A DNA stretch of 64,000 nucleotides, taken from assembly GCA_017465145.1 (NCBI GenBank), contig JAFTWU010000005.1, positions 83,394 to 147,393 of the forward strand. The letters run 5' to 3'. This DNA is from Clostridia bacterium (GTDB lineage: Bacteria; Bacillota; Clostridia; Christensenellales; Borkfalkiaceae). Position 1 is the stretch's first letter. Each line of letters begins with the position of its first letter. Shown piece by piece: positions 35,883 through 63,423 of this stretch. The translations under genes were made by a program, and so were the position numbers. A model generated the notes under the pieces. It made no database searches. It was given only the letters and a program-made list of their open reading frames with translations, and was not told where the DNA came from.

Positions 35883-35945
35883 TAATTTTTTGCATATATA
35901 CTCTATTGCTTGACGGAAAGCGTGTTGCTATGGTAAAATAAAAAT

Positions 35946-36077
35946 ATAGAGTAGTAAAGGCGCGTAAAGTGTTGCAAAATGGGATGTCGTTTGCAAACGA
36001 AAGGTAAAGGTTAATGCGCAAAAGGGCGATAAAGCCCAGGCTAACCTTAATCTGCGGTGCTTTTACGCGTCCGCTAT
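35946..36077 (+). promoter_or_regulatory. THF (tetrahydrofolate, folT-motif) riboswitch with an expanded internal stem
   Basis: Block-by-block match to my recollection of the THF-I aptamer: AUAGAGUAG...CGCGUAAAGUG...AAUGGGAUGUCG...ACGAA...[~50-nt extra hairpin]...GCGGUG...CGUCCGCUAU. P1 pairs AUAGAG with CGCUAU. A hairpin tctctaaat/atttaggaga that sequesters the SD follows at ~36158-36180. Sits upstream of a folT-like gene. Confidence 0.8.
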
Positions 36078-36188
36078 TATTATCTTAAACCTTTTGCACG
36101 GCGCAATCGTACTTACGGCGAAAATGCCCCTTGCTAACGGTTTGGCAATTTTATCGGTCTCTCTAAATTTCATTTAGGAGATTTTTTT

Positions 36189-40625: not shown

Positions 40626-40702
40626 GGCGGCGTAGCTTAGTTGGTTATAGCGGCCGGTTCATACCCGGCAGGTCGTTGGTTCGAATCCGACCGCCGCTAC
40701 CA
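40626..40702 (+). tRNA. tRNA-Met (anticodon CAT), elongator-like
   Basis: 77 nt folded by hand. Acceptor ggcggcg/cgccgct, anticodon arm gccgg-ttCATac-ccggc, T-arm gttgg-ttcgaat-ccgac, encoded CCA. G1 and the absence of a GGG/CCC anticodon stem argue against an initiator. A lysidine-modified Ile2 tRNA is not excluded. Confidence 0.85.
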
Positions 40703-40751
40703 AATCTTAAAAAACGGCAGCCAAACGGTATGCACCAAATAAATATTAACC

Positions 40752-40826
40752 GGCCCCTTGGTCAAGCGGTTAAGACACCACCCTTTCACGGTGGTAACAT
40801 GGGTTCGATTCCCGTAGGGGTCACCA
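40752..40826 (+). tRNA. tRNA-Glu (anticodon TTC)
   Basis: 75 nt. Acceptor ggcccct/aggggtc, anticodon arm ccacc-ctTTCac-ggtgg, T-loop ggttcgattcc, encoded CCA. Confidence 0.9.
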
Positions 40827-42446: not shown

Positions 42447-43853
42447 ATGATTATGAAATGCAATGTAAGAATTTTAGATATTTCTGTAAAGAATTTAAAG
42501 AATTTAAACTCTGGAAATATTGAGTTTAATTCTAGAAAGCAAGTATTAAAAGGTAATTTTGGTTTTGAAAAATCTGATATAATTGGAATTTATGGACAAA
42601 ATGGAAGTTCTAAGTCTACAGTGATTAATGCTTTTTCAATTTTGAAAAAATTGTTTTCGGGTAAAGCATTATCTACAGAATTGTTGAATTATATATCAAA
42701 GACAGCTAATGAAAGTGGATTGTGCATTAGTTTTTTCATTGAAACAAATTCTAATAAATATATTGTGGATTATAATGTTGTTTTTACGATTGATGAACAA
42801 CGAGTAAAAGCAAGTATTAAAACAGAATCAATTTCTTATAAAAAATATAGTGACGGTGCATGGACAAAAATAGCTCCTATTTTTATTATAAATAACGAGG
42901 ATTTAGCTAATTTTATTACTCCTAAAATTAATTACGCTAAGTTAATTAAAGACAATAAAGAAATTTCATCTCAGCTTTTAGTTTTAAAAGGTGAAAAAAG
43001 TTCTGGGAATTTTAGCTTTATATTTTCTGAAGAATTCAAGAATATAATTGATAATATTGAGGAATTTAAGGAATGTGCAGGTTTTATAAATCACATAAAA
43101 ATTTATTCAGTACATTATATGCACTTGTATGACAATAGAGATATTAGCAAAATTACAGCTTTAGATACAATTCCTTTTTTCTACAAAACAGAAGATACAG
43201 ATACTGTTAATAGTACTGAGGGATATTTAACTTTATTCAATGATGGTAAAATAAGCATAAAGCATGAAGAAACCATAAAGGAATATATTAAAGAGATAAA
43301 TATTGTTTTAGAAAAATTAATACCAGGAGTCGTTGTTGGAATAGAAAATTTAGGCGAAACATTAGATAAAGATGGAGAGAAATGCTTTAAATATCAATTT
43401 ATTTCAATAAAAAATGGTTTTTCTATTCCTTTGCGATTAGAGTCGGATGGAATAAAAAAAATTGTTTCGCTTCTTTCATCGTTAGTAGATGCGTTTAATA
43501 ACCCTTATTCTATTTTAATAATTGATGAATTTGATTCGGGAATATTTGAGTATCTTTTAGGAGTTATATTAGATATATTTAAAACAAAAGGTGTAGGACA
43601 ATTATTATTTACATCACATAATTTGAGAGCGTTGGAAATTATTCAAGATGATATAATTTTTACAACTAATAATCCGGATGAGCGTTTTGTTAGAATTCCT
43701 TATGTTCAGTCTTCAAATAACCTTAGAAGAAAATATTTAAGAGATTTATTTTTGAACGAAACAGAATGCTTATCTAATAAAATTGATGGATACGATATTT
43801 ATAGAGCTTTTAAAGATGCAGGAGCCTTGTGTTTGTATGGCGAAAAAAAATAA
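42447..43853 (+). CDS. ABC-type (AAA_15/21-like) ATPase, PARIS AriA-like / AbiLi-like
   Basis: 468 aa. P-loop GQNGSSKST, signature-like ESDGIKK, Walker B ILIIDEFDSG, H-loop FTSHN. Confidence 0.75.
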   Translation: MIMKCNVRILDISVKNLKNLNSGNIEFNSRKQVLKGNFGFEKSDIIGIYGQNGSSKSTVINAFSILKKLFSGKALSTELLNYISKTANESGLCISFFIETNSNKYIVDYNVVFTIDEQRVKASIKTESISYKKYSDGAWTKIAPIFIINNEDLANFITPKINYAKLIKDNKEISSQLLVLKGEKSSGNFSFIFSEEFKNIIDNIEEFKECAGFINHIKIYSVHYMHLYDNRDISKITALDTIPFFYKTEDTDTVNSTEGYLTLFNDGKISIKHEETIKEYIKEINIVLEKLIPGVVVGIENLGETLDKDGEKCFKYQFISIKNGFSIPLRLESDGIKKIVSLLSSLVDAFNNPYSILIIDEFDSGIFEYLLGVILDIFKTKGVGQLLFTSHNLRALEIIQDDIIFTTNNPDERFVRIPYVQSSNNLRRKYLRDLFLNETECLSNKIDGYDIYRAFKDAGALCLYGEKK

Positions 43854-44547
43854 GAAAAAAGTCTTACTCGTTATATGTGAAGGGCTAAGTGATGATGTTA
43901 CTATACATAAAGCTCTTAATAACTTTGCTCAAAAACAACTTGACCGTATACAGGTTGAAATAACTGATGGAGATATAGCATATAAAGAAGATATAGATGA
44001 AACTAATTGTGTAGAAAAAGTTGCCAAAATAGTAAAAGATTTTAAAATGAAGAATTTTCTATATGCTTCGGATCTTTTTGCAGTAGTCCACATTATTGAT
44101 ACGGATGGAGCTTTTATAAAAGATTCTTCAATTGTGGAAAATAGGAGCTTAAACGACCTTGTTTTTACAGAGAATCAACTTTTGACACCAAATAAAAATA
44201 TAACATTAGAGAGATTTCACAAAAAACAAAAAATATATAAAAAATTATTAGAAGAAGAATATATCGATAATGTTAAGTATTTTAAGTTTTACTTTTCTAG
44301 AAATTTAGAGCACGCTTTATACGATAAGCCTAATGCAGCCAAGCCTGAGAAAATTGCATTATCAGATGAGTTCGAAAAAACATATAAAGAGGATGCGGAA
44401 GGTTTTTATAATATAATGAATTCTATATTGTTTGCGGTCCCTAACGATTATAATAAAAGTTGGGATTATATTTTAGCAAATAATAATTCCATTAATAGGT
44501 GTAGTAATTTTATTATCTTATTAGATATGATAAAGAATAATAATTAA
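43837..44547 (+). CDS. Toprim-domain partner (DUF4435/RloB-like; AriB-like / AbiLii-like)
   Basis: ATG 43837 (MAKKNKKKVLLVICEGLSDD). Toprim Glu in ICEG and DxD in HIIDTDG. Overlaps the ATPase gene by 17 nt across an A8 tract. Confidence 0.7.
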   Translation: MAKKNKKKVLLVICEGLSDDVTIHKALNNFAQKQLDRIQVEITDGDIAYKEDIDETNCVEKVAKIVKDFKMKNFLYASDLFAVVHIIDTDGAFIKDSSIVENRSLNDLVFTENQLLTPNKNITLERFHKKQKIYKKLLEEEYIDNVKYFKFYFSRNLEHALYDKPNAAKPEKIALSDEFEKTYKEDAEGFYNIMNSILFAVPNDYNKSWDYILANNNSINRCSNFIILLDMIKNNN

Positions 44548-45094: not shown

Positions 45095-45697
45095 ATGAAA
45101 AAATTTTATATTGGCGAAAATAAATATTTAGAGCAGAAGGTTTTGGCGTTTTATAATTGCGATTACGTTGGCTATCAAAAACAAGGCAACCCTGACTTTA
45201 TAAATCACCTTAAAAATATGACATATCAATACAATGAGTTAGATTTAGTTGAAGATTTTTTTCAGGTTTCTGAAAGGCTTGTTAAAGATATGGAAAGTAT
45301 TTTTAATAAAAGCGATTTTAAGAATTTTACAGTTTGCGTTATGCCTCGTTCTAAAAGGGAAAGCAAGTATAAACAAAGTCAACTAATGTACAAAAAAGCA
45401 ATTTCAAGTTGTGCTAATAAATTAGGTTTTATTAATGGCACGGATGCAATTATAAGAGTTAAAGACACTAAAACAACGCATAATTGGAGGCTTGAAAATG
45501 ATACGGGCGACAATCCATATAAAGGTATTACGAAAGACACTTGCAGGGTTTATTTAAGTAAAATTAAAGATAAAAATATTATTTTAGTTGACGATATCTA
45601 TACGGAAGGTGTTAACGTAATTGAAGATTGTATTCAATATCTATTTGATCTAGGCACAAAAAGTGTTATACTATACGTAACGGCAAAAACAAGGTAA
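45095..45697 (+). CDS. Phosphoribosyltransferase-domain protein (ShosT-like)
   Basis: 200 aa. PRPP-binding loop KNIILVDDIYTEGVNV near the C-terminus. SD aaggag. Confidence 0.65.
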   Translation: MKKFYIGENKYLEQKVLAFYNCDYVGYQKQGNPDFINHLKNMTYQYNELDLVEDFFQVSERLVKDMESIFNKSDFKNFTVCVMPRSKRESKYKQSQLMYKKAISSCANKLGFINGTDAIIRVKDTKTTHNWRLENDTGDNPYKGITKDTCRVYLSKIKDKNIILVDDIYTEGVNVIEDCIQYLFDLGTKSVILYVTAKTR

Positions 45698-45702
45698 AGA
45701 TT

Positions 45703-46530
45703 ATGAACTCAAATATTTCATTAAAACTTTTTGGTTTAATAAAAACGGGCGTTATAAAAACTAACGCTCACTTTTGGAAATCGTTTTATAATGAAGATTA
45801 TATAAACACTTTTCCTTGCGACTTACAAGCAATAAAACAAGAACTTGAAGCAAAAGGCATAAACGTCATAAGTGTTTTTGATAAAAACTTTCCTATTACA
45901 AACGCTAAACTTAAAAATAGTGAAAAGCCGTTTTTCTTTGCATATAAAGGCGATATAACGCTACTTAATAACGCTGATAAAAACGTTGCGGTTATAGGTG
46001 TTTTAACGCCAACTAACGAAACAGTAGAAAGAGAACAAAAAGTCATAAAAAGTTTAACTAAAAAGGGCTACAATATAGTTAGTGGGCTTGCAAAAGGTTG
46101 CGATACGGTTGCACATAGCGAAAGTATTAAAAACAATGCAAAAACTATTGTTTTTCTTCCGTCAACAATAGAAAATATTTATCCTAAAGAAAATGTAGGC
46201 TTAGCAAACAAAATCGTAGAAAATGGTGGACTTATAATAACCGAATACGTAAACGAGTCTAAAAACAAATACGAAACGGTTAAACGATTTATCGAACGTG
46301 ATAGGTTGCAAGCATTGTATTCAAAGGCCGTAATTTTAATTGCAAGTTATCGCAAAAATGAAGGCGATAGTGGTTCTCGCCACGCTTTTGAAAAGGCAAA
46401 ACAATACGGCAAAAAAAGGCTTGTTATGTATAGAGAAAGCGACTCTAACGATTTAACGTTTGGGTTAAATAAAGACTACGTTATGCAGGGTGAAAAAGTC
46501 GTATCGCAAAAAGAAATTGAGGGACTATAA
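45703..46530 (+). CDS. DprA/Smf-like (SLOG/Rossmann) protein (ShosA-like)
   Basis: 275 aa. NVAVIGVLTPT...IVSGLAKGCDTVAHSESIKNNAKTIVFLPSTIENIYPKEN...GGLIITEY matches the DprA core pattern. Confidence 0.7.
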   Translation: MNSNISLKLFGLIKTGVIKTNAHFWKSFYNEDYINTFPCDLQAIKQELEAKGINVISVFDKNFPITNAKLKNSEKPFFFAYKGDITLLNNADKNVAVIGVLTPTNETVEREQKVIKSLTKKGYNIVSGLAKGCDTVAHSESIKNNAKTIVFLPSTIENIYPKENVGLANKIVENGGLIITEYVNESKNKYETVKRFIERDRLQALYSKAVILIASYRKNEGDSGSRHAFEKAKQYGKKRLVMYRESDSNDLTFGLNKDYVMQGEKVVSQKEIEGL

Positions 46531-47004
46531 TTGGTTTACGTTGTAGATTTAGACGATACGTTAGTTTTGACAAAACACTTAAATAACGACGCCTACAATT
46601 TTGCTTTAGAGAAAAATGGTAAAAGTCGGATTAAAACTAATAAACGTCTAACACGAGAGAACTTTGGCGAAACGGCTAGCAAGAAATTAATAACCGACAA
46701 GCAAAATTATTTTGCTCAAAAGTGGCTTAAATATAGAGTGGTTGTTAACGAAGAAATATTAAAGATATTGCAAGAACAAGATAAAGAAAATTGCTATCTT
46801 TGGACAAGTGCAGATAAAAACCGAGCCGATTTTATATTAAAAGAACTTGATTTGTATAAGTACTTTAATAAAGTTATTTATGATGATAAAAAAGATTTGA
46901 ATAGTTCATTAAAAAGATTAAAAGACATTACCAAAAGTAACGTCTTTTTAATTTTTGAAGATGTTCAATCTAGTACTAAGAGTCTATGCTATACTAATAG
47001 GTGA
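46531..47004 (+). CDS. Small HAD-superfamily hydrolase
   Basis: 157 aa. TTG start directly after the preceding stop, with gaggga 7 nt upstream. Motif I VVDLDDTLV, motif II-like LWTSA, acidic motif YDDKKD. Confidence 0.6.
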   Translation: MVYVVDLDDTLVLTKHLNNDAYNFALEKNGKSRIKTNKRLTRENFGETASKKLITDKQNYFAQKWLKYRVVVNEEILKILQEQDKENCYLWTSADKNRADFILKELDLYKYFNKVIYDDKKDLNSSLKRLKDITKSNVFLIFEDVQSSTKSLCYTNR

Positions 47005-47036
47005 ATTGTTTTTGTTTAGCTATAAACAAAAATATA

Positions 47037-47065
47037 TTGAGATATTTCCTTAGTCATGTTATAAT
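47037..47065 (+). promoter_or_regulatory. Promoter TTGAGA-17-TATAAT
   Basis: ttgaga 47037-47042, tataat 47060-47065. Confidence 0.5.
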
Positions 47066-47188
47066 AAAAAAAATTAGTTTATGTAGATTATTCTATTAGG
47101 TTAAAGCGTAACAAGTAAAAAAATTAACATTTGCTATAACTATAATGCTTACGATGTAATTAAAAAACTGTGAAGGAATAAAGAGATA

Positions 47189-47800
47189 ATGACTAAAAAG
47201 AAAGTTTATACAATAGGTTATACAACCTTTGACATTGACAACTTTATAAAAGAATTAAAAGAGAATAAGATAACTTGTGTTGTTGACGTAAGAAGTTCTC
47301 CTAAGTCTAGTTATTATAAAGATTTTGATTCAGACGTTTTCGAAAGTCGTTTAAAAAACGAAGGAATTTTATATAGAAATTATGCTTTTGAATTTGGGGC
47401 AAGGCAGGAAGATAAGTCTTTGTATCCTAATGGTTATTTGGATTTTGAAATGTTTTCTAAGACTGCAAATTTTAAGCAAGGCGTAAAAAAATTAGAGTCC
47501 GGTATTAATTTAAATCAAACTTTTGCTCTGATGTGTGCGGAAAAAGATCCATATAATTGTCACAGATGTATAATGGTTGCAAGATTTTTGCAAGACTATG
47601 GCTTTGAGATTATTCATATCGTAGGGCATAACGAATTTGTTTCTCAAAAGGAAATTGAAGAAAGACTCATGAACGAATATTACCCTAAGCGCAACCAATT
47701 TTCGTTATTTCCAGAGGAGAATTTGAGCGATGAAGAGTGTTTATTATGCGCGTATCGAAAAAGAAATAAGGATATTGGGTTTAGGATAGAGGAGGAATAA
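47189..47800 (+). CDS. DUF488-family protein (long paralog)
   Basis: 203 aa. VYTIGYT, VVDVRSSPKS, MCAEKDPYNCHRC, EIIHI. Confidence 0.75.
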   Translation: MTKKKVYTIGYTTFDIDNFIKELKENKITCVVDVRSSPKSSYYKDFDSDVFESRLKNEGILYRNYAFEFGARQEDKSLYPNGYLDFEMFSKTANFKQGVKKLESGINLNQTFALMCAEKDPYNCHRCIMVARFLQDYGFEIIHIVGHNEFVSQKEIEERLMNEYYPKRNQFSLFPEENLSDEECLLCAYRKRNKDIGFRIEEE

Positions 47801-47801
47801 A

Positions 47802-48242
47802 ATGAAGTTATACACGATTGGGTTTACACAAAAATCGGCAAGAGAATTCTTTGAGCTCATAAAGAAAAACGAAATAGAATTGTTAATAGATATTAGATTA
47901 AACAACGTTTCTCAACTTGCGGGTTTTGCTAAAGGTAAGGATTTAGAATATTTTTTAACTGAAATTTGCAATTGCAAATACGTGCATGATGATTTGTTTG
48001 CTCCAACAAAAGAACTTTTGGAAGATTATCGTGCAAAAAAAACATCTTGGGATAAATATGAAGAAATCTTCTCTAATATAATCAAAGGTCGCAATCTTGT
48101 AGAAAGATTTAAAAAGCTTTATACAAAGAGTGAAAAAGTTTGTTTGTTATGTACAGAACCTACGGCGAAGCAATGTCATAGAAGACTTGTTGCAGAGTAC
48201 TTAAAAGATAATATGGAAGGAGTTGAAATAATCCACATCTAA
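47802..48242 (+). CDS. DUF488-family protein (short paralog)
   Basis: 146 aa. LYTIGFT, LIDIRLNN, LCTEPTAKQCHRR, EIIHI. Starts 1 nt after the preceding stop. Confidence 0.75.
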   Translation: MKLYTIGFTQKSAREFFELIKKNEIELLIDIRLNNVSQLAGFAKGKDLEYFLTEICNCKYVHDDLFAPTKELLEDYRAKKTSWDKYEEIFSNIIKGRNLVERFKKLYTKSEKVCLLCTEPTAKQCHRRLVAEYLKDNMEGVEIIHI

Positions 48243-48256
48243 TTGAGGGAAAACAA

Positions 48257-50110
48257 ATGAAGAAGCAAATATGTATTTTAACTAAATCATATAAACATGG
48301 CGGGTATTGTGTTGCAGGTGTAGACATCGAAACTAAAGAGTGGATTCGTTTAGTTAATAGCGATAATCCTAGTACCGATGAAATTAGAAAAGAGCAAATG
48401 ATTCTAAATGGGAAAGTAATAGACTGTTTAGATGCTTTAGAATATGATTTTATTAAAAACATTCCTAATTCTTGTCAAACAGAGAATTGGCTGTTAAATA
48501 ATACAATATCTCCTAGATTCATTAAGAGTATATCGCTTGAAGAACTTGCTGACATTGTAGAACTTGAAAAAGAAGAGGTTTTTATTCGCAATACTTCTAA
48601 TTTGTTGAATGAAGAAGAGGTGTCGGGAGTGAAACGCTCTTTATACATATTCCATGTGCAGAATTTAAAAATAGAAGCAACATCATACGAGCGCTTTGGA
48701 GAAATTAGATTTAGATATAAATGCGCTTTTGATTACAATGGTAATAAATATACAAACATTTCACTCACAGACCCAATATATAGAGACATTTCTCAAGATG
48801 GGCTTAATTTGGAGGATGCCTTAATAATAGCAAGTTTGCCATGTGTACCATATAGCGATGGCTCTTTCTATAAATTTGTAGCTAAAATTATTCCAGTTGA
48901 TAAGAACCTTGCATCATATATGGAAAAAAAGAACGAGGAAAGAGTAGAAACAATTGATGCTCATAAAACTCAATTGTTGCCTTCACCATTTGTTAAATAT
49001 GATTTAGTTGTTCAAGCACAACAAACGCCAGGTGTCGTTAGGTTTGAGAATTATGAGCAACTTAAGAGCAGTATAAGTAATGGAGTATCATATTATTCTA
49101 ATTTTGAATACACATTAGATAATTATCAATTAGCCTTAAAACACCATAATGAATTAAAACATGTAAAAAGCGCTTTAGAGAAGACCAAGAGAGAAATTGT
49201 AAAAAGTTATAATGCTCCACTTGAAACGGTAGAAAAGAGGATAGAAGAACTAATTAATCTAATAAAAGTTCCGTTCAAGAAACTTGACACATTCATAAAA
49301 CAAAACGAAAAAGAATCTAAGAAATATGAAATTTTAAAGTTTGCAAGAACATGTGCGACATCAAATGGCTTATGCGAACATTTGGATAACATAATAAATA
49401 GTCCAGCATTTTTTGATAGCAAATGGCTTAATGCATCTTGTGTAAGGTCGACTTGGAGGTCTGCAGTATTATTAAAAATAGGAAATGCAGTTAAAGACAT
49501 CGAATATATATTGTCTTTACAAAATGATAATGTTGCTAGTATTTTGGCTCATTATTATCAAACTTTATCTATTGACATGGTGAAAGAGTTTATTGATTCA
49601 CTACAACGTGCATCTCAATTTACAACTAAACATGAAAAAGAAGATAAAGTTAACAATACTGTAGTTAGTGAAACGCAACCTGCTTCTAAAGAAAAACTAG
49701 CAATTGGTGAAAATATAGAAGAAACTCAATCAAATTCAAATAGCGATATAAACTATTCGGATTATGAAATTTTAAGCTATGTTGCAAGCTCTATTAATCC
49801 ATACACAGGAGAGGTTATAACGGGTATCGATGACTATTTGAAAAATAAAATAATTGAAATAGCCAATAAATTTGAAAATGCATTGAGGGGAGTGAGTGCG
49901 CCATCAATAGAGAAAAAAAGTGAGTTAAAAACAAAACAACAAAGAGATGAGAAATTTCCAATGGCGTGGGAAAAATGGACAGAGGAAGAAGAATCAAGAT
50001 TAGTAAAAGAATTTAATCAAGGACTTTCAGTAGATGAAATTGCTTCTATGCATAATAGAAAAGAGGGAGGCATCCGTGCGAGGTTGAAGAAATTGGGGTT
50101 GATTGAATAA
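48257..50110 (+). CDS. 617-aa mosaic protein: unassigned N-terminal domain, DUF1351-like helical middle, C-terminal HTH
   Basis: SD gaggga. N-terminus ICILTKSYKHGGYCVAGVDIETKEWIRLV. Middle VRFENYEQLKSSI...KREIVKSYNAPLETVEKRIEELINLIK. C-terminus WEKWTEEEESRLVKEFNQGLSVDEIASMHNRKEGGIRARLKKLGL. Confidence 0.7.
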   Translation: MKKQICILTKSYKHGGYCVAGVDIETKEWIRLVNSDNPSTDEIRKEQMILNGKVIDCLDALEYDFIKNIPNSCQTENWLLNNTISPRFIKSISLEELADIVELEKEEVFIRNTSNLLNEEEVSGVKRSLYIFHVQNLKIEATSYERFGEIRFRYKCAFDYNGNKYTNISLTDPIYRDISQDGLNLEDALIIASLPCVPYSDGSFYKFVAKIIPVDKNLASYMEKKNEERVETIDAHKTQLLPSPFVKYDLVVQAQQTPGVVRFENYEQLKSSISNGVSYYSNFEYTLDNYQLALKHHNELKHVKSALEKTKREIVKSYNAPLETVEKRIEELINLIKVPFKKLDTFIKQNEKESKKYEILKFARTCATSNGLCEHLDNIINSPAFFDSKWLNASCVRSTWRSAVLLKIGNAVKDIEYILSLQNDNVASILAHYYQTLSIDMVKEFIDSLQRASQFTTKHEKEDKVNNTVVSETQPASKEKLAIGENIEETQSNSNSDINYSDYEILSYVASSINPYTGEVITGIDDYLKNKIIEIANKFENALRGVSAPSIEKKSELKTKQQRDEKFPMAWEKWTEEEESRLVKEFNQGLSVDEIASMHNRKEGGIRARLKKLGLIE

Positions 50111-50385
50111 TTAATCTGGTGCTATCAATGCCTTATTCTATTAAAAAATGGAATAGTGGGCGGTTTAATACGAGATTGAGTTCTCGAGAGAGAAAAATGG
50201 AAGGTCTAATGGAGATACATTAGGCCTTTGTTATTGTCGTTTTTTACGAAAGTGAAAGATTAAACGTAACCGTACCCTTTATCGTAGGCTACCGTATAGA
50301 CAACTAAAACGACGGTTTTATCCTTATTTTACAATTAATTAAACAACGGATAGCTTATAACAATACATTAGAGAATAAAAAGAGT

Positions 50386-50421
50386 AAAAAGCGTTAGCAC
50401 TAAATCGTGCTAACGCTTTTT
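50386..50421. terminator. Bidirectional terminator
   Basis: aaaaagcgttagcac/gtgctaacgcttttt. Confidence 0.8.
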
Positions 50422-50423
50422 AG

Positions 50424-51920
50424 TTATTTGCTTAGTTCAACTAATTTTTGCCAAATTTTTACGGTTGCGAACGTGTCCAGTTCGCAGTATTTTAACAAAT
50501 TTTTTCTAACTTGTTCTTGTTCTTCTTTTGGCATATCTTTTATCTTTGGGAAAATAGACATTGCTTCGCCACCGTTGTGTACGCCTTCTAAATTATGATA
50601 ATCAAGTTTAGGGTCGTTAGGGAACATTGCCGGTAGAATACTTTTAATAGAAAAAGAGTTCCCAATCGCTTTATTATAATAATATCCTTTACGGAAAGGA
50701 ATCAACAAGTCTTTTATGTTGTTTTTAATTTTCAAAAGTTTATCTGATAAATCAGGGAAGATTTCTGCCAATTCAGCTATTCTTGATTTTTCAAAGGTTT
50801 GATTAAACACCATAACGCAAGCGTTTTCAGGGATGTCGCTTACTAATTGTTCAGCGAGAGCACGTCTTGTATCCGTTCCACTTTCGCCCAAAAATTCTCT
50901 GTGTTGTAGTTCTCCACCTTCACTTTCAATATAATGAAGTGAATATTGGAATAGCAAGTGTTGATAAGGTCTAATTTTTGGAAACTCTGGAACAACCACT
51001 TGCATGCTTTCAAAATCTAAAAAGTAAAGTGGATAAGAGAGAGTGTCTAAAAAGGACTTTATTCCCTCTTTATCAATATGTTCGTCTATTCCTTTAAGAA
51101 CAAAATCAAGTTGGCGCTTTTGAATTTCGTTAAGTTTCATAAGCTGTCTAACGTCGCCAATTTCGAAATAGCCGTCGCGATACGCCTTAATCTTTTTATC
51201 AAAACTTAACCTATAAACATCGAAAACGTTGGGCTTTGGTAGGTGGCGAGAGCAGTAGTCCCAATATCCGCAAGAATATGGTTCACGACACTTCATTGAA
51301 AGGTCAATATCGGGCTCGTTTTCAGAGTCGCAAATTTTCGTTGCTTCTATTAAGTCGAATTCAATATCGTGTTTTTTAGATTCTTCTTCAACTAGAGCAG
51401 AAACATCCTTAATAGTGAAAAGTTGTTGCAAGTCAAGTTTGCCGTCAAAAACGTATTGGTTGTTTATATGAACGATATAAGTACCCGTAACGTTAATTCC
51501 GCACTTTTCTAAAACGTATTTTTGATAGGTAATATCGGTTATGTAAACAGCGGAAACGTGGGTTGAGCTTTTTACTTCGTAAATAGCATAGCCGTCTTTT
51601 TCCTTGCGTAAAATGTCGCAAGAGCAAAATAGTCCGCCACTACTAAAAGATGCTTCGCAAATATTATCTGTGCCGTTTTTTAAGCACTCGGAAGTCTTCT
51701 CTATCATTTTAGATAAATCTAACTTGCCGTCTTTATTATAAGCTGTAACTTCGGTATAATCGCCAAACAACCCCATAGCAAGATCGCCAATTTCGTTGCC
51801 TGTTTCAAAACGTTCTTCAGCAGACGGGTCTTGCGTAAACACTTCGGGTTTATATTTGTTCAGCCACAAAATTTTAGGGCATTGACAGTATAAACAATAT
51901 TTAGATTTAGAAAAGTTCAT
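50424..51920 (-). CDS. Cas4/RecB-like nuclease fused to a DUF2779 domain
   Basis: ATG 51920 follows ggggga (the GTG at 51932 lies inside the SD). N-terminus SKSKYCLYCQCPKILWL, nuclease core CDIL...IYEVKSS, Cys cluster CREPYSCGYWDYC. C-terminus YFLDFES...PYQHLLFQYSLH...VFNQTFEKSRIAEL (DUF2779, DEDD-like). Confidence 0.75.
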   Translation of the reverse strand: MNFSKSKYCLYCQCPKILWLNKYKPEVFTQDPSAEERFETGNEIGDLAMGLFGDYTEVTAYNKDGKLDLSKMIEKTSECLKNGTDNICEASFSSGGLFCSCDILRKEKDGYAIYEVKSSTHVSAVYITDITYQKYVLEKCGINVTGTYIVHINNQYVFDGKLDLQQLFTIKDVSALVEEESKKHDIEFDLIEATKICDSENEPDIDLSMKCREPYSCGYWDYCSRHLPKPNVFDVYRLSFDKKIKAYRDGYFEIGDVRQLMKLNEIQKRQLDFVLKGIDEHIDKEGIKSFLDTLSYPLYFLDFESMQVVVPEFPKIRPYQHLLFQYSLHYIESEGGELQHREFLGESGTDTRRALAEQLVSDIPENACVMVFNQTFEKSRIAELAEIFPDLSDKLLKIKNNIKDLLIPFRKGYYYNKAIGNSFSIKSILPAMFPNDPKLDYHNLEGVHNGGEAMSIFPKIKDMPKEEQEQVRKNLLKYCELDTFATVKIWQKLVELSK

Positions 51921-56967: not shown

Positions 56968-58275
56968 ATGGTAGAAAAAGAACAAGTATCAGTTGTAGAA
57001 ATTGAAAAAACGTTTGAACCTGTTATCGGCTATAAGTCGATAAAAAATGAAATGATTAAGATTTGCGATATAATGAGAAATAGCGAATTTTATTCTAAGC
57101 TTGGCGTAAGTGTTCCTAACGGATTATTGCTTTCGGGTGAACCAGGCCTTGGCAAAACGCTTATGGCAAACTGCTTTATAAAAGCAAGTGGTAGAACGGC
57201 TTTTGTTTGCAGAAAAGATAAACCAGATGGCGACTTTGTAAACCACATTAAAAGCACTTTTGATGAAGCCGTTAAAAATGCTCCGTCAATAGTTTTTCTT
57301 GATGATATGGATAAGTTTGCTAATGGCGACGAGTATCATAAAAATAGTGAAGAATTCGTGACCGTGCAGTCTTGCATAGATGATTCAAAAAATAAAGAAG
57401 TTTTTGTTTTAGCAACAATAAATGATGAAGACGCTATTCCTATTTCTTTGCTTAGAGCAGGCAGATTCGATAATAGAATCGAAGTAAATTCTCCTAAAGG
57501 CGAAGACGCTGAAAAAATCGTTGAACATTATATAAAGAAAAAGAACTTCGTTTCGGACGTTGACGTTAAAACTATAACGAAACTTCTAAACGGGGCAAGT
57601 TGTGCAGAACTTGAAACCGTTATAAATCAAGCGGGCGTATATGCGGGTTTTAACAGAAAAGAAAAAATTGAAATGGACGATATCGTTAGGGCTTGCTTAA
57701 GAATTATTCATAATGCACCCGAAAGAGAACAAGCGCATTCGCCAGAAGTATTAAAGGCCGTTGCTTATCACGAAGCAGGGCACGCCGTTATTGCAGAAGT
57801 ATTAGAACCTGGTTCTGTTAACTTTGTTTCCGTTCGCTCTCACGGTGGAAGTACGGGTGGGTTTACCAACTACTATCAACCAGAAGAATATTGGATTAAA
57901 GAACAGTATATGGAAAATAGAGTTACCGTTATTCTTGGCGGTAAGGCTGCAACTGAAACGGTTTTTGGCGAAACTGACGTTGGTGCAAACAAGGATTTGC
58001 ATCGTGCATTTGATATTGTTGAACGCTTCGTTGATGATTATTGCTCTAATGGGTTTGATAGATGGCTTCAAGGCAGAGAATATTCTAATGGAGCTGTTGA
58101 GCGTCGTGATATGCAAATGGCAATTGAAATGGAAAACTTTTATAAAAAAGCCAAAAAGATTTTGATTGATAACCGTGAGTTCTTAGATAAACTTGCAACT
58201 GCGCTTATAAATAAAGACGTTTTAACAAGCGTGGAAATTGAAGCAATAAAGGCTACCTGCAAAATGGTAGCCTAA
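56968..58275 (+). CDS. Soluble FtsH-like protein: AAA+ ATPase + M41 zinc metalloprotease, no TM region
   Basis: 435 aa. Walker A GEPGLGKT, Walker B VFLDDMD, SRH LLRAGRFD, zinc site HEAGHAV, M41 block GGKAATETVFGETDVGANKDL. Starts directly with the ATPase domain. Confidence 0.85.
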   Translation: MVEKEQVSVVEIEKTFEPVIGYKSIKNEMIKICDIMRNSEFYSKLGVSVPNGLLLSGEPGLGKTLMANCFIKASGRTAFVCRKDKPDGDFVNHIKSTFDEAVKNAPSIVFLDDMDKFANGDEYHKNSEEFVTVQSCIDDSKNKEVFVLATINDEDAIPISLLRAGRFDNRIEVNSPKGEDAEKIVEHYIKKKNFVSDVDVKTITKLLNGASCAELETVINQAGVYAGFNRKEKIEMDDIVRACLRIIHNAPEREQAHSPEVLKAVAYHEAGHAVIAEVLEPGSVNFVSVRSHGGSTGGFTNYYQPEEYWIKEQYMENRVTVILGGKAATETVFGETDVGANKDLHRAFDIVERFVDDYCSNGFDRWLQGREYSNGAVERRDMQMAIEMENFYKKAKKILIDNREFLDKLATALINKDVLTSVEIEAIKATCKMVA

Positions 58276-60612: not shown

Positions 60613-61434
60613 ATGATTATTGTTGTTGAAAAGGGTGTATTAAAAGAAGTAAACGTTGATTATGAAAAGGATATTGGCGTTAAAGAATTTGCTATTCCTG
60701 ACGGGGTAGCTATTCTCGCAGATGAAAGCCTAGCTCATTTGCCTTTAGAAGTAGAAATGCTTTATATCCCTAAGTCAGTTAAAAAAATTCACGAAGGGGC
60801 GTTTTTTGGCGAAGGCAGTAACTGGGAAAACCTTAAAAACATTATTGTAGAAGAAGGCAACAAAAACTATAAAAGCCAAACGGGTTGTTTAATTGATATC
60901 AACTCTAACACCGTAATACTTGGTACGGAAAACGCTATTATTCCTAACGGAATTGAAAAAATTGGCGTTTACGCTTTCCGTCAAAGAGCTGGTCTAACAG
61001 AGATTACAATTCCCGAAAGCGTTAAAGAAGTTGACTTGCAAGCCTTTGCATGTTGTAATAATCTTAAAAAGGTAACCGTTTTAGGCGAGAAAACAAATCT
61101 TGATTATCTTTGCTTTATTTTAGATACGGCGATAGAAGAATTTAATCTTCCCGAAAAAGCTGATTACGAATTTATAGACGGCTGTTTAGTTAAAAAGTCT
61201 TGTGAAACGCTTTTAATGCTTACTGAAAAGGGCGAAATTCCCAAAAACATCGTAACGATATGGACTTGGGCGTGTGCTAGATACTGTAAGGACGTAGTCG
61301 TTCCTGAAACGGTTGTTAGTTTTGCTGAAAACGCGTTTTTGTTGCTTGGCGGTGGAAAGCTTAAAGTTAAAAAAGATAGCCCCGCGCATAAGTATGCAGT
61401 AGAAAACGAACTGAATTACGAAATTATTAGATAA
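60613..61434 (+). CDS. Cytoplasmic BspA-type LRR protein
   Basis: 273 aa, no signal peptide. LRR_5-like repeats (IPKSVKKIHEGAFFG, IPNGIEKIGVYAFRQRAGLTEITIPESVKEVDLQAFACCNNLKKV). Confidence 0.75.
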   Translation: MIIVVEKGVLKEVNVDYEKDIGVKEFAIPDGVAILADESLAHLPLEVEMLYIPKSVKKIHEGAFFGEGSNWENLKNIIVEEGNKNYKSQTGCLIDINSNTVILGTENAIIPNGIEKIGVYAFRQRAGLTEITIPESVKEVDLQAFACCNNLKKVTVLGEKTNLDYLCFILDTAIEEFNLPEKADYEFIDGCLVKKSCETLLMLTEKGEIPKNIVTIWTWACARYCKDVVVPETVVSFAENAFLLLGGGKLKVKKDSPAHKYAVENELNYEIIR

Positions 61435-61446
61435 TGGTGGAACAAT

Positions 61447-63423
61447 ATGAGAAAGATTAACCGCGAATTTACAGAAGAACAAGGATATAAAAAGGCGCAA
61501 ATATTATACGTTTTGCACGTTTTAGAAAGAGATACGGATAGAAATAATACTTTAACGCAGGCAGAGATTGCCGATAGAGTTAAAGAACTTCGTGGTGAAG
61601 TTTACGATGACGAACCGCAAGATAAAGACAAAAGGACGGATATTCGTTCTACGGGCAGAGCACTTAGAATACTTAAGGACGTTGGATATAATATTCACGG
61701 TGTAAATATGACCGGTGAAGATGGCGTAGTTCATCAAAAAACGCGCAAAGGCATTTGGCTTGAAAAAGAAATTAGTGATGAAAAATTGCAAATACTTATA
61801 GATACGATTTTATTTGCTAACTATATTGGCAAAGCAGAAGCAAAAGAACTTATAGACAGTTTAATTTCGCTTGGGGGACCAACCATTAGAGAAAAAAAGA
61901 GTGCAAGCGCAAGGGTAGACGGGGGAAAAGTTTACCATAGAGAAGACAACGACTTTTTTACCGAGCTTAGAAAAATAAACGAGGCTATGGAATTAAAAGA
62001 GCCAAAGCGAATTGCCTTTAAGTATGCAAGATATAAGTTTGATAAGGCTAATGATAAATTCGTATTAGAAAAAGCGCACGAACACGAAGTTAGCCCCTAT
62101 CACTTTATAGTACAAAAAGGACATTATTACCTTGTGGGGTATAATCATAAAAGGGAAAACTTGTGGCACTATCGCCTTGATTACATAAAAGACGTAGAAA
62201 TTTTAAAAGAATATATCAAGCCGAGAAATGAAACGGAATTAAAGGGTAAGGACATAGGTAAATACGCCTTAGAACGTCCCTATATGTTTGCTGGAAAGGC
62301 TGAAGGTATAGAAGTTAGAATAAGTGCCGATAGAATTGGAATTTTGTTCGATACTTTTGGTGAATCGTTTAGGCGAATCAAAGATAACGGCAACACGATA
62401 GACTTTATGCTATATTGCACCGAAGAAAATGCGTTCCATTGGGCAATGCAATACGGCTCACACGTAGAAGTATTAAAGCCACAGTCTTTAAGAAACAGAA
62501 TTCGCTATCACGTTGAAAATATGATGTTTAATTATTTGCGTGACGACGGGGATAGATACACCGAAGCAATCAGACTTGCAAGAAGCAGGAAGATACTTAA
62601 CCTTGAAGGAATAGACCTTGCGGGCAAGACTAAACACCTTAATCTTAAAAACGTTCGCACGATTCTTTTATCTAACAATAAAATAGACAACGTTGATTTT
62701 ATTAAGAATATGCCTTCACTAAGGCACGTTTCTATCAAAAATAACCCTATTACCGATTTAAGCCCGTTAAAAGAGTGTAAGTTGTTAACAAAATTAGAAC
62801 TTGCAAACTTAAACGTAAAGGATATAGAGCCTATTGCGGATTTGCCGATAGAAATACTTTATTTAGGCTTTGGAAAAACTGAAGACCTTTCCGCCGTTTA
62901 TAAACTAAAGAATTTAAGGTGGCTAAGGGCAAGTGAAACGTGTGCAGATTATAATAAAACGCTTTCAACTAATTGGGAAGAATTTGAAAAACGTGGCGTA
63001 AGTACTTGGATTAGCGAAAGAGAATGCAATAACGTGAACACCAACAACGGCACATATATTAACGCATATTATCCCTATAACTTGTTAAAGAGCGTGTTTG
63101 GCAGAGATAACGTTTGGGTTGGTAGCCACGAAGAAATTTCTTTAGCGGTAGATAAGGTCGTTGAAAAATTCACCGACAGGGAAAAAGCCTATTTAGATTT
63201 AATTTATAAGCAAAGGGTTTCTAATAGAGATGCAAGAAAAACGCTTACTTTAAGTGAAAGTGAATTTAGAAGTTTGCAAAACGACATTTTAAGAAAATTT
63301 AGAAATCCACTATTTACCGATTCTCTTGAAAAATTCGTTGAGGAAGAAGACCCTCAAAAAAATTATAGTTTAGCTGATGTTATAGAAAGAAAAAAAGAAA
63401 TAGAAAAAAATTCTAAAAACTAA
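61447..63423 (+). CDS. wHTH-WYL-WCX regulator fused to internalin-type LRRs and a C-terminal sigma-r4/LuxR-like HTH
   Basis: 658 aa. N-terminal HTH (LTQAEIADRV...GRALRILKDVGYNI). WYL core VSPYHFIVQKGHYYLVGYNHKRENLWHYRLDYIKDVEIL. LRRs LSNNKIDNVDFIKNMPSLRHVSIKNNPITDLSPLKECKLLTKLELANLNVKDIEPI. C-terminus FTDREKAYLDLIYKQRVSNRDARKTLTLSESEFRSLQNDILRKFRN. Confidence 0.75.
   Translation: MRKINREFTEEQGYKKAQILYVLHVLERDTDRNNTLTQAEIADRVKELRGEVYDDEPQDKDKRTDIRSTGRALRILKDVGYNIHGVNMTGEDGVVHQKTRKGIWLEKEISDEKLQILIDTILFANYIGKAEAKELIDSLISLGGPTIREKKSASARVDGGKVYHREDNDFFTELRKINEAMELKEPKRIAFKYARYKFDKANDKFVLEKAHEHEVSPYHFIVQKGHYYLVGYNHKRENLWHYRLDYIKDVEILKEYIKPRNETELKGKDIGKYALERPYMFAGKAEGIEVRISADRIGILFDTFGESFRRIKDNGNTIDFMLYCTEENAFHWAMQYGSHVEVLKPQSLRNRIRYHVENMMFNYLRDDGDRYTEAIRLARSRKILNLEGIDLAGKTKHLNLKNVRTILLSNNKIDNVDFIKNMPSLRHVSIKNNPITDLSPLKECKLLTKLELANLNVKDIEPIADLPIEILYLGFGKTEDLSAVYKLKNLRWLRASETCADYNKTLSTNWEEFEKRGVSTWISERECNNVNTNNGTYINAYYPYNLLKSVFGRDNVWVGSHEEISLAVDKVVEKFTDREKAYLDLIYKQRVSNRDARKTLTLSESEFRSLQNDILRKFRNPLFTDSLEKFVEEEDPQKNYSLADVIERKKEIEKNSKN

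What the first reader, a model, noticed from the sequence alone, without database searches (positions are those of the whole stretch)
47189..50110. Compact operon of two DUF488 paralogs plus a 617-aa mosaic DNA-binding protein inside the defence island
Seen: three genes with 1-nt and 14-nt gaps behind their own TTGAGA-17-TATAAT promoter, wedged between a ShosTA-like module and a Cas4-like/DUF2779 nuclease plus McrBC. Genes 1 and 2 (203 and 146 aa) both show what I recognise as the DUF488 signature: (V/L)YTIG(Y/F)T, a (V/I)D(V/I)R strand, C-x-E-x5-6-CHR (MCAEKDPYNCHRC, LCTEPTAKQCHRR), and an ending EIIHI. Gene 3 combines three parts. The first is an unassigned Cys/aromatic N-terminal ~210 aa (ICILTKSYKHGGYCVAGVDIETKEWIRLV). 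The second is a long helical middle resembling phage DUF1351-type proteins. The third is a C-terminal Myb/sigma-r4-like HTH (WEKWTEEEESRLVKEFNQGLSVDEIASMHNRKEGGIRARLKKLGL). Established: DUF488 has no assigned biochemical function that I know of, and I know of no named defence system containing it. Inference: a candidate uncharacterised defence or DNA-transaction system.
Basis: partly seen in the sequence, partly recalled or inferred. Interest (0 to 1): 0.8.

Follow-up and report, generated by a model that had tools for sequence, protein, structure and literature searches.

The report
DuOB–DUF488 candidate defence operon (PDC-M45)
This is a real, widely conserved three-gene operon: two DUF488 enzymes plus a DNA-binding protein with an RPA-like pair of OB folds. 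It is already catalogued as the untested anti-phage candidate "PDC-M45", so it is not a new kind of system, but nobody yet knows its chemistry.

Summary
Three co-directional genes (47189-50110) have 1-nt and 14-nt gaps, Shine-Dalgarno sites, an 11/12 extended -10 promoter and downstream terminators.

Genes 1 and 2 are DUF488 paralogs (27% identical). Both keep the same 11 invariant residues, including C-x-E-x5-CHR.

The "unassigned" N-terminus of gene 3 is in fact the Pfam DuOB domain (tandem OB folds; the model's best PDB matches are RPA70, RPA32 and SSB). It is followed by DUF1351, a conserved helix-loop-helix module and a small HTH.

The three proteins match PADLOC's PDC-M45 A, B and C. PDC-M45 is one of 145 untested candidates found embedded in BREX, DISARM and type I RM systems.

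In 37 species-level genomes with a DuOB gene, 33 have DUF488 genes directly adjacent on the same strand. Three of the four exceptions lie at contig edges.

Most DuOB proteins are standalone at about 210 aa. The 617-aa fusion here is a minority variant.

The cassette also occurs on an ICE beside Shedu, next to type I RM, and on small proteobacterial plasmids where DUF4326 replaces the long DUF488.

The likely role is an anti-mobile-element system in which the OB subunit binds ssDNA or DNA ends and Cys-dependent DUF488 enzymes act on terminal phosphate or sugar groups. That mechanism is inferred, not shown.

Verdict: a new member of a known but uncharacterised candidate family.

The parts
47037..47065 (+). 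Sigma-70-type promoter TTGAGA-17-TATAAT with extended -10 TG, about 120 nt upstream of gene 1
   Evidence: Only 11/12 match in 46400-50600; sequence read
47189..47800 (+). Gene 1: long DUF488 paralog (203 aa, PDC-M45B). DUF488 core aa 1-145 plus a conserved C-terminal extension ending AYRKRNKDIGFRIEEE
   Evidence: Pfam DUF488 1.3e-17; PADLOC PDC-M45B 6e-51 over 1-201; 292 homologs; invariant catalytic-type residues retained
47802..48242 (+). Gene 2: short DUF488 paralog (146 aa, PDC-M45C, DUF488-N3a 'active' subclade)
   Evidence: Pfam DUF488 1.7e-21 and DUF488-N3a 43.3 bits against a cut-off of 27; PDC-M45C 6e-57; AF2 model pLDDT 93.5, Rossmann-like alpha/beta fold
48257..48901 (+). Gene 3, domain 1: DuOB (dual OB-fold) domain, aa 1-215. 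This is the conserved core partner of the DUF488 genes
   Evidence: Pfam DuOB 1.8e-40, full profile; PDC-M45A 2.7e-28; pLDDT >90; Foldseek best matches RPA70 4gop_C, RPA32, HIN2, Stn1, LEF-3, SSB
48989..49633 (+). Gene 3, domain 2: DUF1351-like helical domain (aa about 245-460), homologous to a phage recombination-module protein (phrog_674)
   Evidence: Pfam DUF1351 9e-18; phrog_674 2.6e-19; BFVD matches to phage DUF1351 proteins; in Dorea phage DO134P1 the homolog lies between a RecE-like exonuclease and RecT
49751..49882 (+). Gene 3, module 3: conserved helix-loop-helix motif 'DYEILSYVASSINPYTGEVITGIDDYLKNKIIEIA' (aa about 499-542). Shared by all the long architectures aligned here (C-terminally extended DuOB proteins and standalone DUF1351 proteins); absent from minimal DuOB
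   Evidence: Nearly invariant L506 A510 N514 P515 T517 G518 E519 I524 D525 L532 I535 in 40 sequences of different architecture; detected in 15 loci with my own HMM; no Pfam match
49952..50107 (+). Gene 3, domain 4: small three-helix HTH-like domain (aa about 566-617)
   Evidence: PHROG 323 1e-7; sub-threshold GcrA and Sigma70_r4_2; helices 576-587, 592-599, 603-612 at pLDDT about 89. Replaced by HRDC in relatives
50200..50229 (+). Terminator-like hairpin 90 nt after the gene-3 stop
50385..50422 (.). 16-bp bidirectional terminator hairpin shared with the convergent DUF2779/Cas4-like gene

Best explanation
The locus is a member of the DuOB-DUF488 cassette, PADLOC candidate PDC-M45. This is a horizontally mobile three-gene operon that most likely acts against invading DNA (phage, plasmid or ICE).

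**Shown**
- The three genes form one transcription and translation unit.
- The DuOB subunit is a tandem OB-fold protein whose closest structural matches are RPA- and SSB-type ssDNA binders.
- It is almost never found without one or two adjacent DUF488-clade genes.
- Both DUF488 paralogs keep the same invariant set T, G, D, R, S, Y, C-x-E, C-H-R, so both look catalytically competent.
- DUF488 folds as a Rossmann-like alpha/beta domain. Cys117 sits at the end of a strand and His126-Arg127 open the next helix.
- The C-terminus of the DuOB protein is a swappable module: absent, DUF1351+HTH, HRDC, or other.

**Inferred**
- DuOB recognises single-stranded DNA or DNA ends produced by replication, recombination or entry of the invader.
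- It positions the two DUF488 enzymes, probably as a heteromer.
- Those enzymes use a Cys/Arg phosphate-binding loop, as in the rhodanese-phosphatase superfamily, to remove, transfer or modify a terminal phosphate or sugar on the nucleic acid. That would block ligation, priming, recombination or packaging.
- In this window the OB subunit carries a domain borrowed from phage RecE/RecT-type recombination modules (DUF1351) plus two small DNA-binding modules. These would bias it towards recombination intermediates or tether it to duplex DNA.
For: - **Operon anatomy:**
- **Family membership:** PDC-M45 A, B and C; DuOB, DUF488 and DUF488-N3a all above cut-offs.
- **Linkage in genomes:** of 37 species-level loci with DuOB, 18 have both DUF488 types adjacent, 13 have one, and 2 have the short type only. 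The 4 with none are 3 contig edges and 1 N-truncated DuOB.
- **Linkage elsewhere:** the same trio appears in seven distinct metagenomic contexts.
- **Rosetta-stone fusion:** the long DUF488 is fused to an OB half in one ORF in a Selenomonas MAG.
- **Plasmid version:** DuOB, then a short-type DUF488, then DUF4326. DUF4326 is described as a rhodanese-phosphatase clade proposed to process terminal ribose phosphates (PMC9503650).
- **Mobile and defence context:**
  - This window is a low-GC island next to tRNA genes, between a ShosTA-like module and McrBC.
  - Type I RM, KAP NTPase and AAA_23 neighbours.
  - An ICE with Shedu and ImmA/IrrE.
  - SLFN-type helicase, SRA and NUDIX neighbours.
  - RM-type Pfam families are the commonest among neighbours of the trio subtype.
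  - PDC candidates were defined by embedding in BREX, DISARM or type I RM systems.
- **Structure:** the DuOB part of the model best matches RPA70 bound to ssDNA, RPA32, Stn1, LEF-3 and SSB. The DUF488 model's weak best matches are diphthine-synthase-like methylases and protein tyrosine phosphatases.
- **Arms-race signature:** domain swapping at the DuOB C-terminus. Identities are discordant along the operon: 88%, 55% and 33% for gene 1, gene 2 and DuOB against L048.
Against: - No experiment exists. PDC systems are explicitly untested, and no paper in the searchable library mentions PDC-M45 or links DUF488 to defence.
- The defence neighbourhood is not universal. One trio sits between HU, Dus, PGK and TIM genes. 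Neighbours of the single-DUF488 subtype are mostly ordinary metabolic genes.
- The link of DUF488 to the rhodanese-phosphatase fold is weak here: Foldseek TM <= 0.46 with no E < 1e-3. No PDB relative was found by sequence or profile. hhalign against one DUF4326 sequence gave only a 15-column match.
- The Cys-to-Arg spacing is C-x9-R, not the classical C-x5-R.
- The substrate is unknown. RNA or a small molecule cannot be excluded.
- Complex formation was not modelled.
Confidence: 0.55

Rival explanations
1. Same cassette and same defence role, but the DUF488 enzymes act on a small molecule rather than on DNA ends. Candidate substrates are ADP-ribose-derived phosphates, NAD+ products or nucleotides. 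DuOB would serve only as the ssDNA-triggered sensor (abortive-infection logic).
For: - DUF4326, which replaces the long DUF488 on plasmids, was proposed to process terminal phosphates on the ribose of ADPr (PMC9503650).
- A NUDIX gene lies directly upstream, or two genes upstream, of the trio in two unrelated contexts.
- Nucleotide-targeting neighbours occur here: a ShosT-like PRTase and a dGTPase.
Against: - Tight coupling, and even fusion, of DUF488 to an OB fold suggests the enzyme is brought to the nucleic acid itself.
- No cyclase or signal-generating gene is present in the cassette.
Confidence: 0.15
2. An accessory DNA-repair or DNA-end-processing module for the host's own DNA, not an immune system.
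For: - Some copies have housekeeping flanks: HU, Dus, PGK, TIM, DnaX, RecR.
- Neighbours of the single-DUF488 subtype are mostly ordinary metabolic genes.
- The RPA-like OB, HRDC and RQC partners are typical repair domains.
Against: - Distribution is patchy. Only 37 loci were recovered by the pattern scan of one genome for each of 185,579 species, and there are 1,176 clusters among 1.84 billion representatives.
- The cassette is carried on an ICE, on small plasmids and in low-GC islands.
- There is modular shuffling and discordant divergence along the operon.
- The cassette was picked up as embedded in RM, BREX or DISARM systems.
Confidence: 0.14
3. A module that serves the mobile element itself: protection or processing of transferred ssDNA during conjugative entry, or anti-defence, like leading-region SSB/PsiB/Ard genes.
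For: - It is found on mobilizable and small plasmids next to mob, par and TA genes.
- It is found on an ICE between the recombinase/Shedu/ImmA region and the TraG T4SS genes.
- DuOB is SSB/RPA-like.
Against: - Most copies show no conjugation genes nearby: in the window and in the other contexts.
- On the ICE it sits with cargo defence genes (Shedu).
- DuOB gave no match in 50,697 phage records.
Confidence: 0.12
4. Chance juxtaposition of unrelated genes.
For: None beyond the AT-rich background, which yields many promoter-like sites.
Against: DUF488 is adjacent on the same strand in 33 of 37 DuOB loci across several phyla, and the two are fused in one case.
Confidence: 0.01

Closest known systems
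PADLOC phage defence candidate PDC-M45 (Payne et al. 2024, bioRxiv 10.1101/2024.01.29.577857)
   Same: All three proteins match the A, B and C models with near-full coverage. It is a three-family cassette (CAS_00153, suppl. file 8).
   Different: The PDC-M45A models cover only the DuOB part (profiles of 188-318 positions). Here the A subunit carries about 400 extra residues (DUF1351, helix-loop-helix, HTH). The gene order here is B-C-A. PDC-M45 is untested, so there is no function to compare.
Pfam DuOB (PF22557) with DUF488-N3a/N3i (PF22751/PF22752). [quoted passage not shown] That paper is not held here and could not be checked.
   Same: DuOB matches end to end. Gene 2 passes the N3a ('active') cut-off. 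DuOB is obligately linked to DUF488.
   Different: Gene 1 does not reach the N3a or N3i cut-offs, yet it keeps every invariant residue. So this operon pairs two apparently active enzymes rather than an active plus an inactive one.
Proteobacterial plasmid trio DuOB-DUF488-DUF4326 (e.g. A. baumannii pB8300, C. freundii pCF1807-5)
   Same: Same logic: one DuOB plus a short-type DUF488 plus a second enzyme in one operon on accessory DNA.
   Different: The order is DuOB first. The second enzyme is DUF4326 instead of the long DUF488. DuOB is only 26-29% identical and standalone.
RPA70/RPA32, SSB and baculovirus LEF-3 (OB-fold ssDNA binders)
   Same: They are the best structural matches to the DuOB part of the model.
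   Different: Similarity is at fold level only (E about 1e-3, 10-14% identity). No oligomerisation or C-terminal tail features of SSB are present. DuOB has its own invariant motifs (TKSYKxGGxCxAG, CQxEN, SxTDPxxR, YKFxAK).
Phage DUF1351 / phrog_674 proteins of RecE/RecT-type recombination modules
   Same: The middle of gene 3 matches them. In Dorea phage DO134P1 the homolog lies between a RecE-like exonuclease and RecT.
   Different: Only 24-27% identity to phage copies. Here it is fused to DuOB and sits in a chromosomal island. The phage context rests on a single genome.
E. coli YeaO and generic DUF488 proteins
   Same: Same Pfam family.
   Different: They are single-gene and not linked to DuOB in any way I know of (from memory; not examined here). 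Their function is also unknown.

Membership tests
PADLOC PDC-M45 | Protein matching the PDC-M45A model | tested here: met
   Gene 3 aa 2-213 against PDLC04653, 2.7e-28; also the three other A models
PADLOC PDC-M45 | Protein matching the PDC-M45B model | tested here: met
   Gene 1 aa 1-201 against profile 1-194 of 204, 6e-51
PADLOC PDC-M45 | Protein matching the PDC-M45C model | tested here: met
   Gene 2 aa 1-145 against profile 1-143 of 145, 6e-57
PADLOC PDC-M45 | The three genes adjacent on one strand | tested here: met
   Gaps of 1 and 14 nt; same arrangement in related loci
PADLOC PDC-M45 | Anti-phage activity | not testable with these tools
   The source paper calls the 145 PDC systems untested
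Pfam DUF488 (PF04343) | Score above the gathering cut-off of 22.2 bits | tested here: met
   Gene 1 scores 65 bits; gene 2 scores 77.5 bits
Pfam DUF488-N3a 'active subclade' (PF22751) | Score above 27 bits | tested here: met
   Gene 2 scores 43.3 bits. Gene 1 scores only 17.5 bits, so it is not a member of N3a by this test
Pfam DuOB (PF22557) | Full-length match above 27 bits; two OB folds | tested here: met
   139.7 bits, profile 1-210 of 210. The AF2 model has two beta-barrel-like strand blocks at pLDDT >90, with RPA and SSB as best matches
Pfam DUF1351 (PF07083) | Score above 27.8 bits | tested here: met
   65.2 bits, but it covers only profile positions 4-149 of 210
Rhodanese-phosphatase superfamily (for DUF488) | Rossmannoid fold with a catalytic Cys at the end of a strand, a phosphate-binding loop, and Arg at the start of the next helix | tested here: inconclusive
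   The model has strand 112-117 ending at invariant C117, loop 118-125, and a helix from H126-R127. Foldseek lists PTPs (8dhi, 1fpz, 1zcl) and diphthine-synthase-like methylases only at TM 0.37-0.46 and E >= 2e-3. The spacing is C-x9-R. hhalign to DUF4326 is not significant
Sigma-70 region 4 / Myb / GcrA-type HTH (C-terminus of gene 3) | Pfam score above the family cut-off | tested here: not met
   GcrA 15.2 against 26.9; Sigma70_r4_2 14.2 against 25.7. A three-helix model and PHROG 323 at 1e-7 support a generic HTH only
ssDNA-binding protein (functional class, for DuOB) | Binds single-stranded nucleic acid | not testable with these tools
   Only fold resemblance to RPA and SSB is available

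The most novel reading that the evidence does not exclude
DuOB-DUF488 is a working immune system with new chemistry. An RPA-like tandem-OB sensor captures phage or plasmid ssDNA or recombination intermediates. It hands their termini to a heteromeric pair of Cys-dependent rhodanese-phosphatase-fold enzymes, which install or remove a terminal phosphate or sugar group and so make the invader's DNA ends unusable. The swappable C-terminal modules (the phage-recombination-like DUF1351, HRDC, HTH) would set which intermediates are recognised. This would also give the first biochemical function for the large DUF488 family, which includes E. coli YeaO.
Probability: 0.2. Interest if true: 0.8.

Novelty: new member of a known kind. 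Interest (0 to 1): 0.45.

Why it matters
DUF488 is a very large family with no solved structure found here and no biochemical function that I know of or found in the searchable papers. DuOB is obligately coupled to it.

This locus offers a compact test case: a native promoter and three genes in about 3.1 kb. It could be used to ask two questions. Is PDC-M45 a real defence system? What does the C-x-E-x5-CHR site do?

The comparative results narrow the experiments:
- The minimal system is a DuOB of about 210 aa plus one or two DUF488 or DUF4326 enzymes.
- The C-terminal module of DuOB is swappable.
- There is a natural DUF488-OB fusion.
- Plasmid and ICE versions exist.

The finding itself is not a discovery of a new kind of system, because PADLOC and Pfam already catalogue it.

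Tried and rejected
- **Solved structures.** Sequence and profile searches of the PDB for all three proteins found nothing usable.
- **DUF488 fold search.** Foldseek of the DUF488 model against the PDB gave no match with E < 1e-3. The best TM was 0.46, so no fold family could be assigned with confidence.
- **DUF488 versus DUF4326.** hhalign of the DUF488 profile against one plasmid DUF4326 sequence gave only a 15-column match around 'P..CH' (probability 2%), which is not evidence.
- **Literature.** 'PDC-M45' is in no main text. 'DuOB' returns only noise. 'DUF488' appears in 32 papers, and none of those I listed or opened links it to defence or assigns it a biochemical function. The Burroughs & Aravind 2023 paper that I recall as the source of the DuOB and DUF488-N3 families is not held, so what I say about it is from memory.
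- **NCBIfam.** It has no model for any of the three proteins.
- **RNA elements.** Rfam finds no RNA element in or next to the operon.
- **Acidic-tail idea, dropped.** I considered that the acidic C-terminal tail of gene 1 (IEEE) might mimic ssDNA on the OB fold. The single-DUF488 subtype lacks the tail.
- **Neighbour statistic.** The Pfam tally of 214 flanking ORFs is descriptive only. I ran no matched background control, and my ORF calling was heuristic.
- **The 194-aa gene in L008.** The gene upstream of the standalone DUF1351 protein has no Pfam or PHROG hit.


Full report
**1. What is in the sequence**

The gaps are 1 nt and 14 nt.

An AGGAGG sits 7 nt before the gene-2 start, inside the last codons of gene 1. 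A GAGGG precedes gene 3. The genes are therefore translationally coupled.

The 184-bp gap upstream holds TTGAGA-17-TATAAT with an extended -10 TG at 47037-47065. It is the only 11/12 promoter match in 46400-50600. The count of weaker promoter-like sites there is no higher than in shuffled sequence.

Two terminator-like hairpins follow gene 3, at 50200-50229 and 50385-50422. The second is bidirectional and shared with the convergent DUF2779/Cas4-like gene. Rfam finds no RNA element in the operon.

The operon lies in a low-GC stretch (0.26-0.35, against about 0.40 before it). That stretch starts just after tRNA-Met and tRNA-Glu at 40626-40826. Its other genes are:
- an AbiL-like ATPase;
- a ShosTA-like pair with an abutting HAD/NIF-type phosphatase;
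- the DUF2779/Cas4-like gene;
- McrBC;
- a dGTPase-like HD protein.

**2. What the proteins are**

*Genes 1 and 2.* Both pass the Pfam DUF488 cut-off. Gene 2 also passes the 'active DUF488-N3' subclade model. They are 27% identical to each other.

In a 48-sequence alignment of both families, 11 columns are invariant: T5, G7, D30, R32, S37, Y76, C117, E119, C125, H126 and R127. Both paralogs therefore look catalytically intact.

Gene 1 has an extra conserved C-terminal extension of about 60 residues.

The AlphaFold model of gene 2 is confident (pLDDT 93.5). It is a Rossmann-like alpha/beta domain in which C117 ends a strand and H126-R127 open the next helix.

No solved structure is related by sequence or profile. 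Foldseek gives only weak matches (TM <= 0.46) to diphthine-synthase-like methylase domains and to protein tyrosine phosphatases.

*Gene 3.* It has four parts:
- **DuOB (aa 3-211).** An end-to-end match to Pfam DuOB, the 'dual OB-containing domain'.
- **DUF1351 (aa 254-412).**
- **Helix-loop-helix module (aa about 499-542).** Strongly conserved, and present in all the long architectures I aligned (C-terminally extended DuOB proteins and standalone DUF1351 proteins).
- **Three-helix HTH-like end.** It is sub-threshold in Pfam but hits PHROG 323.

The model's DuOB part best matches RPA70 bound to ssDNA, RPA32, HIN, Stn1, LEF-3 and SSB. Its middle part matches phage DUF1351 proteins.

**3. It is an already catalogued candidate**

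All three proteins match PADLOC's PDC-M45 A, B and C models at 3e-28, 6e-51 and 6e-57.

PDC systems are 145 single- and multi-gene candidates. They were derived by 'guilt-by-embedding' within BREX, DISARM and type I RM loci, and the authors describe them as untested (bioRxiv 10.1101/2024.01.29.577857).

PDC-M45 is listed as a three-family cassette in that paper's supplementary file 8.

I found no paper that tests it or that links DUF488 to defence.

From memory only: the DuOB and DUF488-N3 Pfam models come from Burroughs & Aravind 2023. That work placed DUF488 with RapZ-C and DUF4326 in the rhodanese-phosphatase superfamily and predicted DNA-end processing in conflict systems. The paper is not held here.

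A held paper from the same group does describe DUF4326 as a rhodanese-phosphatase clade. It proposes that DUF4326 processes terminal phosphates on the ribose of ADPr (PMC9503650).

**4. Conservation as a unit**

A scan of one genome for each of 185,579 species, using a DuOB alignment, returned 37 loci. Most are gut Clostridia MAGs. Others are Elusimicrobia, Synergistaceae, Selenomonas, a Proteobacteria MAG and Roseburia hominis.

I searched these loci with HMMs built from my own alignments:

| Arrangement next to DuOB | Loci |
|---|---|
| Both DUF488 types adjacent, same strand | 18 |
| A single long-type DUF488 adjacent | 13 |
| Short type only (one at a contig edge; one with two tandem DuOB genes) | 2 |
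| No DUF488 nearby | 4 |

Three of the four loci with none lie at contig edges. The fourth has an N-terminally truncated DuOB.

Gene order is usually long DUF488, short DUF488, DuOB. In three loci DuOB comes first.

In a Selenomonas ruminantium MAG the long DUF488 is fused in one ORF to the second OB half.

Fifteen small gammaproteobacterial plasmids carry DuOB, then a short-type DUF488, then DUF4326, beside toxin-antitoxin and mobilisation genes.

DuOB gave no match in 50,697 phage records.

The DuOB family is modest in size: 1,176 clusters at 50% identity among 1.84 billion representatives. Most members are standalone proteins of 200-225 aa.

**5. The 617-aa protein is a minority fusion**

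Among 59 relatives of gene 3, the architectures are:
- DuOB + DUF1351 + HTH, about 605 aa, as here;
- DuOB + DUF1351 + HRDC;
- DuOB + HRDC, 382 aa;
- DuOB + another module;
- DUF1351 + HTH alone, 383 aa;
- RQC + HRDC + DUF1351.

The standalone DUF1351-HTH gene sits in a different defence island, after a type I RM system and before a SLFN-type helicase.

In Dorea phage DO134P1 the DUF1351/phrog_674 gene lies between a RecE-like exonuclease and a RecT-like annealase. A RusA-like resolvase and a replication initiator follow. This is a single phage, so it is only a lead.

The operon is also mosaic as a whole. Against the L048 operon, gene 1 is 88% identical, gene 2 is 55% and DuOB is 33%. Against L001, gene 1 is 54% identical while the whole of gene 3 is 64% and its DuOB part 73%.

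**6. Contexts**

- **Defence or mobile contexts:**
  - this window;
  - KAP NTPase, type I RM, NUDIX and AAA_23 followed by the trio;
  - an ICE with a serine recombinase, Shedu, ImmA/IrrE, the trio, then TraG;
  - SLFN-type helicase, SRA and NUDIX followed by the trio, then Fic.
- **Neutral contexts:**
  - HU, Dus, PGK and TIM;
  - a Bacilli locus with unknown genes.

I tallied Pfam families in 214 flanking ORFs. In the half dominated by the trio subtype, RM-type families are the commonest: ResIII x4, Eco57I x3, SNF2 x3, plus N6_Mtase and PLD/NgoFVII. In the half dominated by the single-DUF488 subtype, neighbours are mostly ordinary genes plus a few integrases and resolvases. I had no matched control, so this tally is descriptive only.

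**7. Mechanism**

Shown:
- the three genes form one operon;
- DuOB and DUF488 are obligately linked, and fused in one case;
- DuOB has an RPA/SSB-like tandem OB fold;
- both DUF488 enzymes keep a full conserved Cys, His, Arg, Asp and Glu set on a Rossmann-like fold;
- the C-terminus of DuOB is a swappable set of nucleic-acid-related modules;
- the cassette is carried on mobile DNA.

Inferred:
- DuOB binds ssDNA or DNA ends of an invader;
- it presents them to the DUF488 pair;
- the pair uses a Cys/Arg phosphate-binding loop to alter a terminal phosphate or sugar.

Three rivals remain:
- the same system acting on ADPr-derived or nucleotide small molecules;
- an accessory repair module;
- a function that serves plasmids or ICEs during DNA entry.

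Chance juxtaposition is excluded.

**8. Verdict**

The locus is a new member, with a less common DuOB-DUF1351-HTH fusion, of a known but experimentally uncharacterised candidate family (PDC-M45, the DuOB-DUF488 cassette).

Interest is moderate. It is not a new kind of system, but it is a clean and compact entry point to the unknown chemistry of DUF488.

Noticed in passing
window 46531-47004 (+): A 157-aa HAD/NIF-type phosphatase gene starts immediately after the ShosA-like gene (0-nt gap) and before the PDC-M45 promoter. It looks like a third gene of the ShosTA-like operon (45095-46530). It has no PADLOC model.
   Followed up: partly
window 42447-44547 (+): An AbiL-like AAA_21 ATPase (468 aa; PADLOC AbiLi 1.7e-26) overlaps a 254-aa partner ORF that matches no Pfam, NCBIfam or meaningful PADLOC family.
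   Followed up: partly
window 35945-36078 (+): THF (tetrahydrofolate) riboswitch, 65.9 bits against a gathering score of 36. It lies in the higher-GC part of the window.
   Followed up: no
window 40626-40826 and 42000-64000: tRNA-Met and tRNA-Glu mark the point where GC drops from about 0.40 to 0.26-0.35. The low-GC stretch runs to the end of the window and is packed with defence-type genes. No integrase was seen in 40-58 kb.
   Followed up: partly
window 56968-58275 (+): A 435-aa FtsH-like protein (AAA + peptidase M41). It is much shorter than a typical FtsH as I recall it, and the AAA domain starts at residue 53, leaving little room for an N-terminal membrane anchor. It sits inside the island after the dGTPase-like gene.
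   Followed up: no
window 60613-63423 (+): A BspA-type LRR protein is followed by a 658-aa WYL-WCX-LRR protein, an unusual pairing of a defence-regulator-type WYL domain with leucine-rich repeats.
   Followed up: no
L008 6947-9152 (also L009, L010): A standalone DUF1351 + helix-loop-helix + HTH protein (383 aa, 62% identical to the C-terminal part of gene 3). It sits between a type I RM system and a SLFN-type helicase. A 194-aa gene with no Pfam or PHROG match precedes it. This may be a separate candidate module.
   Followed up: partly
L005 6554-6931; L048 7105-7485: A NUDIX_4 (MutT-like) gene lies directly upstream of the trio in L005-7, and two genes upstream in L048-52. The two genomic contexts are otherwise unrelated.
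   Followed up: no
L045 849-1844; L039 10001-11286: L045 is a natural fusion of the long DUF488 to the second OB half of DuOB, in a Selenomonas ruminantium MAG. L039 has two tandem DuOB genes after a short DUF488, in a Synergistaceae MAG.
   Followed up: partly
window 47189-48901 versus L048 10001-11684 and L001 2911-4617: Identities are discordant along the operon. Against L048: gene 1 88%, gene 2 55%, DuOB 33%. Against L001: gene 1 54%, DuOB about 73%. This points to recombination between system variants, or to very unequal evolutionary rates.
   Followed up: partly
L062 5001-6689; L063 4989-6652: Small plasmids of Acinetobacter, Citrobacter, Salmonella, Klebsiella, Leclercia and Moraxella carry DuOB (annotated 'hypothetical'). 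In the two plasmids inspected it is followed by DUF488 and DUF4326 as an operon, next to RelE/ParE, CcdAB or BrnTA modules.
   Followed up: partly
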